Positions 1-2,561 of a stretch of DNA of 39,880 bases are shown here, piece after piece. The stretch covers positions 1-39,880 of the forward strand of contig JANLPS010000161.1 of the NCBI GenBank assembly GCA_031367385.1. The letters run 5' to 3'. The stretch is from Archangium sp. GTDB taxonomy: Bacteria; Myxococcota; Myxococcia; Myxococcales; Myxococcaceae. The position numbers were made by a program. Positions within the stretch are counted from its first letter, which is position 1. Each line of letters opens with the position of its first letter.

Positions 1-2561
1 GCTACACCCCAATGAGCGGGCGGCGGGAGTCGAACCCGCGCGTGTCAGTTTGGAAGACTGATGCCTTTTCCGCTTGGCCACGCCCGCATGTGTTGTACCG
101 CCGCAGGGACTCGAACCCTGACCTCTCCGTTTAAAAGACGGGTGCTCTGCCTTCGAGCTCCGACGGCAAGCCTCTGCGCACCGCAGCTCTCGTTTCTTCA
201 CCGTGTTCATGGTCGACCTCTGTTCAGCGTGGGACTTCGAGTTGGCACGGAGGGAATCGAACCCTCAACCTCGCGCTGAAGAGGCGCTTGCTCTTCTTGT
301 TGGGCTACCGAGGCGTGGCACGGCAGGAAGGAGTCGAACCTTCAGCGTCGGGTTTTGGAGGCCCGTGCCCTTTCCGATGGGGCTTCTGCCGTAGAAAATA
401 TTTGGGTTGAAATGCGGCAAGAAAAGAGGCCGGGAGCTTTCGCCACCCGGCCTCCAAGAAGTCTCCACGTAGGAGAATCCTCTAAGAGCTGGGGAGCTGG
501 CGACCGCATTGATTCATGGGGAAGTTGCTCAAAACGCAATCGGGAAACACGATGCCGAGTCCGGACCGAAAATCAGGGCGCGCGGCTTCCACCGTTTCTT
601 GATGCCACATCGCGCTGTATGCAATTGAAGCCATGGCGGGTGTCGCTCCGGGCAATGGAGACGCGGCCGCTTGGGATGTCTGACGAGGCTCGTGTCGAAC
701 TTCTCAAAAACGCAGAGCGACAACATGCTGAGCAGCCGCCACATGTTCAGGCTCGCGCCCATGTTGATGCCTTGCGACCAGCTTTGGAAACGCGGCGGGG
801 GCGGGGAGGGTCAGGCAGTCGAGAGACAGTGTCGGAAATCAACGCAAGCACGAGGTCCCTCAGCGAGCCTCACGGGCAGCAGCGACCGCCGTCAATGCCG
901 CATGCAGGTTCGACGGCAGCCCATACGTCCGGCCGAAGTCGAGGAGCTGATTCAAGCTGTGGCTAAACTCCCGCCCAATCTGCGCGGAATTGAGGGCGAT
1001 GAGTGCGAGGTTGGGTCCCGTGAAGTTCATCGCCTCCGAAAAATCACGAAGGGTCTCTTCCACTCGATTCGTCAGGAATTCCTCATTGGCGGAGCTGAGC
1101 CAGAAAACATCTGCTCAGAGCGAGGCCACTTCTGGCTCGTCTCGGACGTCGGGCCGCCAACAGCAGCTTCCGGACCATCCCCGTCACGCACAGCACGCCG
1201 TAGCCGGCGCTCGGCGTGAAACGGGTCAAAAGCCCGCGTCGCCACCGAACAGGCGTTAGAACGCAGGAGGTGCCGGAGCAGACCGCTGACGTTCAAGAAA
1301 TGCGAATTCGACTCGAGGGCCGTGTCGAGCGGCTCGAGCATGCACGCCACGAGCTCGAGGCACTTTCGTCATTGCTCGATGACCGGTGGCCTCGGCGCTT
1401 GCCATGGCAGGTCGAGCGTGTACGGCTGATCGCCGACCTCCCGGCCATCGACGAAGCCATGAGCGCCCTCCGAGCGCTGCCGCAAACCCACGCCCTGGCA
1501 CATTCAGTCGAGCAATCGCGTCGCACCCTCGAGCGCCTCGCGGGAGCCGCCTGGTCATCACTCGGCGACTCGCCCACGGGTCAATCACTCGACGCCTTGC
1601 TGCTCGGCCTGCTCGAACGCGCGCCCATCGACATCGGCTATTCGACTTCGGCCGCAGGGTGGCCGGTGGGGTTCACGATTCTCGCTGGCACCGCGGCGCT
1701 GGCCTTCAGTCAGACCTGGCCGGTCATCATCGGCTGCGGGCTCGCGGTGCTGGCGAGCCTGCTGGCCTGGTACTTCGCGCCCCGTCGAATCTGGGAGATG
1801 CGCTCGTCGAGCATCGTGATTCGCACGCCGAAGCTGCGCGAGCTGCCCTTCAGCGCGATCGAGCGCGTCGAGCAGCTCAACGGCACGGTCGTGGTGCACC
1901 ACACCGAAGAAGGCGTTCGCGTGCAGGAGTCACTCGAGTGCGACTCGCCAGCCGACCTGGCCGCGTTGCTCACCTTGCATCGCGCGCGCAAGGTGCCTCG
2001 AGCCGCCGACCGCCGTGAAGACGCGGTGGTCACCGCTGCGAGGTGGGGTGAGGTCGACGGAGCCATTCTGGCCTTCGCCCGAGGTGTGTTTTTCGTGAAT
2101 CAAAACAACTTATTGCGGGGCTTCGTCGTGCCCCCACGGCTGCTCTTACAAGAGCTCGCCTTGTTGACCGACGACGCGCTCGAGGCCCTCGGAGCGAGCC
2201 TCGACGCGGGCGAGTTCTGGCCCGCCGGGCAGTGCCGGGTCACCACCGGCCAAAGTTCAAACGAGCGAGTGCTCCACCTGGGCCAAGCCCGAGCCGTCAC
2301 CGCCCCGGTCACCGCCGAAGAGGCCGCACGGCTCGAGCGCTGGTTCGCGTAAATCCCCCAGCGGCTTAGGCGACGTTCTGATTGGCGGCCGTGGCTTCGC
2401 GCAGCTTGACCGCGACGAGCTTCGAGACGCCGGGCTCTTCCATCGTCACGCCGTACAACATGTCGCCCACTTCCATCGTGCGCTTGTTGTGGGTGATGAG
2501 AATGAACTGCGAGCCCTTGCTCATCTCGCGAACCATCTCGTTGTACCGGCCGACGTTGCCC

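What a model noticed while it worked through the whole genome (the two positions that open the first line are those of the whole stretch)
14..640. Backup tRNA operon gated by a leader-peptide transcription attenuator
An array of 15 divergent tRNA genes (C232 continuing into C4:1512-2395) is preceded by a 50-codon uORF whose stop lies just before an intrinsic terminator. We think ribosome stalling on the uORF frees its 3' end to form an antiterminator and switches on the spare tRNA set under translation stress. A tRNA operon under classical leader-peptide attenuation would be new.
Evidence so far: ARAGORN on the joined contig ends gives 15 same-strand tRNAs; many have a housekeeping twin elsewhere in rna.tsv. 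The uORF MASIAYS...QLPSS ends about 25 nt before a GC hairpin with a U-run. The uORF end and terminator are about 82% conserved in relatives. Seven relative loci keep a uORF with its stop at the same place ahead of 4-19 tRNAs, and an eighth keeps it ahead of a different tRNA. In 9 of 9 leaders the transcript cut before the terminator's 3' arm folds the uORF end onto the 5' arm (-27 to -34 kcal/mol), while the full transcript folds the terminator in 8 of 9. Search 90 found no uORF-attenuated tRNA operon.
(Added by a program. Inside this text positions count along the whole contig: contig position 1 is position 1 of the stretch shown here. "Call 12" and the like, gene names such as g00115 and contig names such as C1 are that model's own, and its searches are not shown. 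The text may have been shortened before it was handed on; [...] marks where a part breaks off. The agent that wrote the report below was given it as the finding of a first reader that could run no searches.)

Follow-up and report, generated by a model that had tools for sequence, protein, structure and literature searches.

The report
Leader-peptide switch gating spare tRNAs
A myxobacterial chromosome places a 50-codon mini-gene and a predicted on/off transcription stop in front of a block of spare tRNA genes, and because related mini-genes are written in the amino acids whose tRNAs lie behind them, the cell likely makes these tRNAs when ribosomes decode those amino acids slowly.

Summary
The leader is real: promoter-like motif (684-660), SD, 50-codon uORF (634-482), hairpin, terminator (454-419), then tRNA genes, all on the minus strand. 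35 of 37 relative loci keep an in-frame uORF of 20-56 codons with its stop 23-30 nt before the terminator (2 are cut by contig ends). The uORF end pairs with the terminator 5' arm, and wobble positions keep that pairing. New here: leader amino acids track the array's tRNAs. Permutation gives 1/720 in the discovery set and 4/5040 in later-found leaders, with no signal in the other frames. The match is per amino acid, not per anticodon. Corrections: the split-tRNA join is wrong. One public contig holds both pieces 420 nt apart, so the array has about 19-20 genes, not 15. Against: no expression data; this leader lacks Lys; its own pairing does not beat shuffles; 9 of 20 Trp-selected loci have no leader. 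Not found in six paper searches. This scan noted the same design before, mostly in phages (one check left it in doubt). Verdict: new variant of leader-peptide attenuation.

The parts
660..684 (-). Bipartite promoter-like motif GTCAG-N16-CGTC (ECF-sigma type; predicted -35 at 684-680, -10 at 663-660)
   Evidence: Exact match in 31 of 36 leaders. The ATG is either 8-9 nt behind it without SD (11) or 22-31 nt behind it with SD (20). Upstream of 21 of 37 tRNA units of this genome, 0 on the opposite strand, 19 of 4457 protein genes.
646..649 (-). Shine-Dalgarno-like GGAG, 11 nt before the uORF ATG
   Evidence: Sequence; SD present in all 20 non-leaderless leaders that have the motif
482..634 (-). 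50-codon leader uORF holding 19 of 20 amino acids (no Lys)
   Evidence: Homologous start and stop in frame across 14 different lengths in 30 distinct leaders; pN/pS 0.73. No Pfam family; sequence not in the protein collection.
477..503 (-). Predicted antiterminator 5' strand (last 7 codons, stop and 5 nt), pairing with about 461-439
   Evidence: Fold of the nascent RNA, -31.2 kcal/mol, 5' arm paired to uORF tail 0.77; 79.7% of cells paired versus 39-54% for slid registers
462..476 (-). Small hairpin capping the antiterminator, compatible with both states (possible pause hairpin, inferred)
   Evidence: 5 of 5 pairs have a change on both sides among 32 leaders
419..454 (-). Intrinsic-terminator-like hairpin (454-426, -23.4 kcal/mol) with U-rich tail (425-419)
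   Evidence: terminator dominates the full transcript in 28 of 33 leaders. Not picked up by the simple consensus scan.
316..392 (-). tRNA-Trp(CCA), divergent (0.62 to the housekeeping copy)
   Evidence: (50.7 bits)
241..315 (-). tRNA-Lys(CTT), likely degenerating: mismatched acceptor stem, pyrimidine after the anticodon
   Evidence: Rfam 29.5 bits over model positions 7-64 only; sequence
95..167 (-). tRNA-Lys(TTT)
   Evidence: 53.9 bits
14..87 (-). tRNA-Gly(TCC)
   Evidence: 64 bits
1..11 (-). 5' start of a further tRNA, most likely Gln; the array goes on through a 420-nt assembly gap into C4 (Pro fragment, Ile, His, Asp, Phe, Ala, Arg, Met, Met, Val, Leu)
2366..5950 (-). smc gene; chromosomal context, not part of the element
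   Evidence: TIGR02168 above cut-off

Best explanation
A conserved 50-codon leader ORF and a predicted terminator/antiterminator pair sit between an ECF-type promoter motif and an array of about 19-20 divergent tRNA genes, and likely form a ribosome-operated attenuator that lets the array be transcribed when ribosomes decode the leader slowly. Proposed steps: (1) RNA polymerase starts about 8 nt behind the CGTC box (inferred from 11 leaderless relatives). (2) A ribosome that keeps pace and reaches the last ~8 codons covers the uORF tail, the terminator forms and transcription stops (predicted by folding). (3) A ribosome held at codons 2-43, or no ribosome at all, leaves the tail free to capture the terminator 5' arm before the 3' arm is made, so polymerase reads on (predicted; kinetic, because the terminator state is 1.4 kcal/mol lower in this leader). 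(4) The leader works as a checklist of the amino acids whose tRNAs the array supplies: the match across relatives is shown, its sensing role is inferred. The loop would close when the new tRNAs restore decoding. The natural trigger is most likely loss of functional charged tRNA (damage, cleavage or under-charging); ribosome-targeting drugs would also be expected to open it.
For: Architecture in 15 of 15 Myxococcaceae-titled hits and 0 of 11 other hits of a terminator-only scan, and in 22 of 54 metagenome hits. 35 of these 37 loci have a full uORF; 2 are cut by contig ends. Start and stop in frame over 14 lengths, stop 23-30 nt before the hairpin, pN/pS 0.73, p 0.019. Two start modes. Nascent fold pairs arm with tail (>0.5) in 29 of 33; terminator wins the full fold in 28 of 33; the two states differ by -6.0 to +6.7 kcal/mol. 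Core pairs 11-15/61-65 kept in 154 of 160 cells; 2 of 500 shuffles reach the paired fraction. Third position of codon -3 is C in 32 of 32. Switch point 7-8 codons before the stop in 5 of 5 modelled leaders. Leader-array match: 1/720; 4/5040 in seven leaders found afterwards; 0/200000 for 14 types; frames 2 and 3 show nothing; 127 of 129 array amino acids present versus 104.1 expected, 86 of 156 non-array versus 108.6; below 1/5000 in all 100 draws of one member from each of 11 groups, and all 20 amino acids more frequent where the tRNA is present. Precedent: a single Trp codon in the M. smegmatis whiB7 uORF conveys sensing (PMC10274678).
Against: No transcript, start-site, 3'-end or ribosome data. 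In the window the uORF-tail pairing does not beat shuffles (P 0.345 dinucleotide, 0.105 synonymous); only 12 of 33 and 14 of 33 leaders pass 0.05. In the full-length fold of the window leader the terminator wins at every ribosome position, so the switch must be kinetic. The window leader has no Lys codon although the array has two Lys genes (12 of 13 known array amino acids present). Its 19/20 richness is not significant alone (P 0.06 and 0.16). No match within the long-leader clade (3985/5040) and none at anticodon level (50 versus 53.2 expected of 97). L174, L175, L183, L027, L046 and L074 each miss one array amino acid. 9 of 20 loci picked by the tRNA-Trp have no leader, 1 has a uORF without terminator, and L176 has a frameshifted uORF. 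U tails hold only 3-7 U in 8 nt. Terminator scans select for the terminator, and kin are not independent.
Confidence: 0.72

Rival explanations
1. It is an attenuator, but in this genome it acts as a general translation gauge (antibiotics, poor initiation, lost coupling), and amino-acid content adds little.
For: Long leaders hold 15-20 amino acids and do not track gene loss within their clade (3985/5040). No anti-antiterminator is predicted, so untranslated RNA would read through. The window leader lacks Lys. The Anabaena L-array responds to ribosome-targeting antibiotics of any type (PMC8421152).
Against: Short leaders and later-found leaders match their arrays only in the coding frame. Seven distinct leaders hold all 20 amino acids: five at P 0.003-0.02 each, plus L173 and L177.
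Confidence: 0.13
2. There is no regulated attenuation: the hairpin is a fixed leaky terminator or processing/stability element, and the uORF makes a peptide or only shields the RNA; control lies in the ECF promoter alone.
For: Imperfect U tails; 9 of 20 loci use the promoter motif with no leader; the window's own pairing is not above shuffles.
Against: The peptide is barely conserved (pN/pS 0.73, lengths 20-56) while stop position and pairing-compatible wobble bases are fixed. A peptide product would not explain the match to tRNA content.
Confidence: 0.08
3. The family is a working attenuator, but this genome's copy is decaying and is stuck off or leaky.
For: Degenerate Lys(CTT), His not reaching the Rfam threshold, Lys missing from the leader, a mismatch in the core helix; decayed copies exist (L012, L176).
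Against: Promoter motif, SD, frame, stop position and both folds are intact. The TAG stop comes with a partner strand that still pairs, and the states differ by only 1.4 kcal/mol.
Confidence: 0.07

Closest known systems
whiB7/wblC uORF transcription attenuator of Actinobacteria (PMC10274678; abstract, Introduction and one Results section read)
   Same: Variable-length uORF with nearly all amino acids (M. smegmatis: all but Cys); poor translation gives antitermination; codon content sets what is sensed; loss of the start codon raises read-through.
   Different: Output is a transcription factor with positive feedback, not tRNA genes; no match between leader and a downstream gene set; different phylum and promoter.
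Classical leader-peptide attenuators of amino-acid operons (trpL, hisL, pheL, multivalent thrL/ilvL; recalled, pheL paper PMC3082878 seen only in a search listing)
   Same: Leader codons match what the operon supplies; terminator and antiterminator exclude each other.
   Different: Downstream genes are tRNAs, not biosynthetic enzymes or synthetases; no tandem control run in long leaders; no 1:2 helix predicted; up to 20 amino acids sensed.
L-arrays of tRNA genes; Anabaena trn operon repressed by TrcR (PMC8421152: abstract, passages, sections 18 and 27 read; PMC10272220: abstract only)
   Same: Long, patchy, supernumerary array of divergent tRNAs; co-regulation with rtcB is suggested here by the shared motif.
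   Different: Anabaena uses a repressor at a sigma70 promoter; 'attenuat', 'leader' and 'uORF' occur 0 times in PMC8421152's main text. Here the predicted control is an ECF-type promoter plus attenuator.
T-box riboswitches (recalled)
   Same: Sense tRNA status by transcription antitermination.
   Different: They bind uncharged tRNA directly with no ribosome; no T-box match in 1-1300.

Membership tests
Leader-peptide transcription attenuators (general) | Short conserved ORF with a usable start ahead of an intrinsic terminator | tested here: met
   (translation inferred from frame and start signals)
Leader-peptide transcription attenuators (general) | Mutually exclusive terminator/antiterminator overlapping the ORF end | tested here: met
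   computational only, and not above shuffles for the window alone
Leader-peptide transcription attenuators (general) | Translation-dependent read-through shown in cells or in vitro | not testable with these tools
   No RNA data
Classical trpL/hisL/thrL type | Leader codons match what the operon supplies | tested here: met
   Amino-acid level across relatives; window 12 of 13; not at anticodon level
Classical trpL/hisL/thrL type | Tandem run of control codons | tested here: not met
   Window leader has single or scattered codons; short relatives such as L028 and L034 do have His/Phe runs
Classical trpL/hisL/thrL type | 1:2 anti-antiterminator helix | tested here: not met
   Tail paired upstream 0.14 in the window, >0.5 in 1 of 33
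Classical trpL/hisL/thrL type | Downstream biosynthetic or synthetase genes | tested here: not met
   Only tRNA genes follow
whiB7/wblC attenuator | Long uORF with near-complete amino-acid set whose poor translation frees the antiterminator | tested here: met
   19 of 20 in the window, 20 of 20 in seven distinct relatives; geometry
whiB7/wblC attenuator | Downstream whiB7 gene with autoactivation | tested here: not met
   tRNA genes follow directly
L-array of tRNA genes | Long, patchily distributed, supernumerary divergent tRNA array | tested here: met
   18 of 208 family genomes carry the divergent Trp; 10 of 14 have a same-anticodon twin, best same-amino-acid identity 0.37-0.81; flanks differ
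L-array of tRNA genes | Silent in growth, induced by translational stress | not testable with these tools
   No RNA data
TrcR-controlled trn operon | TrcR direct repeats over a sigma70 promoter | not tested
   No search for TrcR or its repeats; the sigma70 consensus scan found 0 sites in 1-3000
T-box riboswitch | T-box leader RNA | tested here: not met
   Rfam scan to E 5
ECF sigma promoter | Bipartite motif with fixed spacing at a start-site distance, also ahead of an ECF sigma gene | tested here: met
   ECF gene on C516 has the exact motif upstream in 13 of 20 orthologue loci
ECF sigma promoter | Mapped start site and dependence on that sigma factor | not testable with these tools
   The motif could also be an activator site

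The most novel reading that the evidence does not exclude
Myxobacteria run a two-key tRNA rescue circuit. An autoregulated ECF sigma factor turns on a regulon of tRNA genes and RNA/ribosome repair genes (rtcB, rsgA, RNase R, a Clp-ATPase/release-factor fusion). A self-indexing leader, rewritten as the array gains or loses genes, releases the divergent spare tRNAs only when decoding of those amino acids fails, for example after tRNA cleavage by toxins or anti-phage nucleases.
Probability: 0.3. Interest if true: 0.87.

Novelty: new variant of a known kind. Interest (0 to 1): 0.72.

Why it matters
How individual bacterial tRNA genes are regulated is described as largely unknown (PMC8421152), and the one worked-out array uses a repressor. 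A leader that lists the amino acids of the tRNAs behind it would be a direct feedback loop on tRNA supply, built from the trp-operon principle. The short natural variants (His/Phe/Arg; Gly/Glu/Ala/Val; Asp alone) give sharp single-codon predictions. A copy in a closed single-contig genome (G077) and copies in two other families of the phylum make it testable in a cellular host. This also gives a firmer test of the same idea that this scan raised for phage tRNA arrays.

Tried and rejected
Direct C232-C4 join by a split tRNA-Pro: rejected. Anticodon-level matching: no signal. Leader-array matching within the long-leader clade: no signal. Amino-acid richness of the window leader alone: not significant. 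Per-locus significance of the antiterminator: weak, window P 0.345. Known RNA family: only tRNAs; the suhB/mmgR hit (21.3 bits, gathering 41) is below threshold. Known protein family for the uORF: none. Sigma70 promoter and the simple terminator scan: nothing at the leader; a sigma54 site was looked for by eye and not convincing. Second attenuator of this type in the genome: the RNA model found only this one, and a motif+uORF+hairpin screen gave only this and one unconvincing hit over a tRNA. Same leader ahead of protein genes: low-scoring model hits without tRNAs looked like ordinary terminators. DNA hits L004 and L005 carry no tRNA and were not pursued. Expression: no RNA holder listed. Prophage origin: none suggested by the 15 ORFs scanned with Pfam; PHROGs was not run. 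Naming the ECF sigma: no names in its cluster, no paper found. Similarity to the ECF41 promoter motif is recalled only; PMC3426412 was seen as a search listing. One promoter-plus-tRNA pattern matched 1 of 5 genomes and was not informative.

Full report
Observation. On the minus strand the window shows, in order: a GTCAG-N16-CGTC motif (684-660), GGAG (649-646), a 50-codon ORF (634-482), a small hairpin (476-462), a GC hairpin (454-426) with a U-rich tail (425-419), and tRNA-Trp, Lys(CTT), Lys(TTT) and Gly(TCC). The 410-520 region folds at -48.7 kcal/mol, z -3.7. Rfam finds only tRNAs there. The neighbourhood is chromosomal: smc, a trypsin-PDZ protease, a sigma54 regulator, TldD/PmbA. Matching public records are titled Archangium, Myxococcaceae or Myxococcales, so the organism is taken to be a myxobacterium.

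The join is wrong in detail. In relatives the same short junction after Gly(TCC) leads into tRNA-Gln, and all 12 array Pro(CGG) genes begin differently from the window's last bases. ARAGORN calls Pro on the artificial join with anything from 0 to 7 N inserted, so that call proves nothing. Laying public contigs settles it. A 2082-nt record in X4 holds window 1-800 at 1154-1953 and C4 2167-2395 at 506-733. A 1073-nt record in X1 and X3 holds window 1-396 and C4 2395 at 817. Both give 420 nt between the pieces, in the same orientation. Short matches inside that gap fit Gln and Asn genes. So C4 is the far part of the same array, and the array holds about 19-20 genes (inferred). X1, X3 and X4 may be the source of this DNA and are not independent. 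Of 14 whole array tRNAs, 10 have a same-anticodon gene elsewhere; best identities to a same-amino-acid gene are 0.37-0.81. Val(TAC), Ala(TGC), Asp and Ile have none, but recalled 16S/23S/5S motifs are also absent from the assembly, and Ile and Ala usually sit in rRNA operons (PMC8421152). 'Backup' is therefore reasonable but unproven for those four.

Relatives. Selecting on the divergent tRNA-Trp alone gave 20 places in 18 of 208 family genomes: 9 with uORF and terminator (including the window), 1 with uORF only, 9 with neither, 1 cut off. A terminator-only scan of one genome per species gave 26 hits: all 15 with myxobacterial titles have motif, uORF and tRNAs; the 11 others do not. In metagenomes 22 of 54 hits have tRNAs directly behind; I dropped the other 32 as ordinary hairpins. 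Of these 37 loci, 35 have a full uORF and 2 are cut by contig ends. Some loci were reached twice or are near-identical, so the statistics use distinct sequences. An RNA model finds one copy in this genome, and matches in 33 of 151 family and 16 of 151 phylum genomes. Most weak matches are plain terminators, but the search added new leader-array types, two of them in other families. Flanking genes differ from locus to locus (30 ORFs scanned), as expected of a mobile or rearranging cassette.

The uORF is under selection for translation, not for its peptide. Among 30 distinct leaders the homologous start and the stop stay in frame over 14 lengths (63-171 nt), and the stop lies 23-30 nt before the hairpin. 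Pooled pN/pS over 12 disjoint pairs is 0.73 (p 0.019). In 31 of 36 leaders the exact motif is present; the ATG is then either 8-9 nt behind it without SD (11, leaderless) or 22-31 nt behind it with SD (20). One relative has a frameshift (L176).

The switch. In RNA cut before the terminator's 3' arm, the 5' arm pairs with the uORF tail in 29 of 33 leaders; in full RNA the terminator wins in 28 of 33. The two states differ by -6.0 to +6.7 kcal/mol, 1.4 in the window. On the alignment 79.7% of cells pair, against 39-54% for slid registers, and 2 of 500 shuffles reach it. The core five pairs hold in 154 of 160 cells through C/U and G/A exchange, and the third base of codon -3 is C in 32 of 32. The alignment scan selected the 5' arm, so it cannot vary much, and relatedness inflates these controls. 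Single leaders are weaker: 12 of 33 beat dinucleotide shuffles at 0.05, and the window does not (0.345). With a ribosome assumed to cover 12 nt past the A site, the antiterminator survives stalls up to codon 43 and is lost from codon 44; the switch point is 7-8 codons before the stop in all 5 leaders modelled. In the window's full-length fold the terminator wins at every position, so the switch would have to be kinetic. No 1:2 helix is predicted, so an untranslated leader would read through, as in whiB7.

What it senses. Short leaders are rich in the amino acids of their own short arrays: His/Phe/Arg (L026, L028, L034, L041), Trp/Tyr/His/Asp/Phe/Arg (L029), Trp/Tyr/Lys/Gly/Asn/Pro/Met/Ser (L036). 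The true pairing of six types ranks first of 720 permutations, both before and after cutting L074 at its internal promoter. I formed this idea on those loci, so the test that counts is on seven leaders found later: 4 of 5040. Frames 2 and 3 of the same DNA give nothing. Over 14 types, 127 of 129 array amino acids are in the leader (104.1 expected), against 86 of 156 others (108.6 expected). One member drawn from each of 11 hand-made groups gives p below 1/5000 in 100 of 100 draws, and all 20 amino acids are more frequent where the tRNA is present. Long arrays have long leaders; seven distinct ones hold all 20 amino acids. Against: no signal within the long clade; none at anticodon level (50 versus 53.2 of 97); six leaders miss one array amino acid; and the window leader lacks Lys despite two Lys genes, one of which looks degenerate.

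A second layer. The motif stands before 21 of 37 tRNA units of this genome (0 on the opposite strand, 0-2 with other spacings, 0.3% expected) but only 19 of 4457 predicted protein genes. A similar motif-plus-tRNA pattern occurs in 13 of 61 family genomes with 0 control matches. Genes behind it include rtcB, rsgA, RNase R, YqeY, a metallophosphoesterase, a Clp-ATPase/release-factor fusion and an ECF sigma factor; several others are unrelated and may be chance. The ECF gene is found in 43 of 61 genomes and has the exact motif upstream in 13 of the 20 loci fetched. That it is the cognate sigma is inference.

Mechanism. Shown: anatomy, conservation, compatible pairing, leader-array match. Predicted: both folds and the ribosome window. 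Inferred: translation, termination, inducibility and the trigger. I give 0.72 to an amino-acid-indexed attenuator, 0.13 to a general translation gauge, 0.08 to no attenuation and 0.07 to a decayed copy. More tRNA does little for plain starvation, so tRNA damage is the more sensible trigger; the shared motif with rtcB and the divergence from housekeeping tRNAs fit that, but nothing here tests it.

Comparison and novelty. It works like the whiB7 attenuator (PMC10274678: abstract, Introduction, one Results section) and borrows the matching logic of trpL/thrL (recalled), but fails defining features of both. It is an L-array (PMC8421152: abstract, passages, two sections; PMC10272220: abstract), with a different predicted control from TrcR. 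Six searches listed no paper on leader-peptide control of tRNA genes; I saw listings only, the library lacks most subscription journals, and no supplements were read. This scan has noted the same design many times before in phages, and once also in bacterial chromosomes. A check of the codon-match claim on other DNA left it in doubt, which prompted my out-of-sample and frame controls; those notes are not counted as support. Verdict: new variant of a known kind, interest 0.72.

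Noticed in passing
G000 genome-wide; C240:20728-22032, C516:7345-8004, C220:7226-8119, C342:4642-7428: The GTCAG-N16/17-CGTC motif marks a likely ECF regulon of tRNA genes plus rtcB, rsgA, RNase R, YqeY and an ECF sigma gene that carries the motif itself.
   Followed up: partly
G000 C11:36384-39239 (L160): 951-aa fusion of a Clp-type AAA ATPase with a release-factor PCRF domain, starting just behind the promoter motif; possibly a ribosome-rescue factor.
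   Followed up: no
C4 position 2167 (L109), 3' end of tRNA-His: Contigs of X1, X3 and X4 leave C4 here and go on in other DNA; X5 holds both forms. Suggests an insertion at tRNA-His or strain variants of the array.
   Followed up: no
C4:2162-2244 (L109): Array tRNA-His is 83 nt with an enlarged variable region and misses the Rfam threshold; similar long His genes occur in L043 and L064.
   Followed up: no
window 168-240: Spacer between the two Lys genes holds an SD-like AGAGG and an ATG (210) whose frame has adjacent AAG AAA codons and runs open through the tRNAs; not seen as a conserved feature.
   Followed up: no
L108:1760-1836: In G221 a short ORF rich in Phe, Ile and Leu precedes Phe-Leu-Ile tRNA genes behind two overlapping promoter motifs, without the terminator (read by eye).
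   Followed up: no
L171 (G290): A 17-codon leader with two Asp codons gates a single tRNA-Asp in another family, behind a sigma70-like promoter.
   Followed up: partly
L175:1193-1765: HNH endonuclease gene directly after the array, as reported for other tRNA arrays (recalled).
   Followed up: no
window 1216-2352 (+): 378-aa ORF with a hydrophobic stretch and no Pfam or NCBIfam match, divergent from the leader.
   Followed up: no
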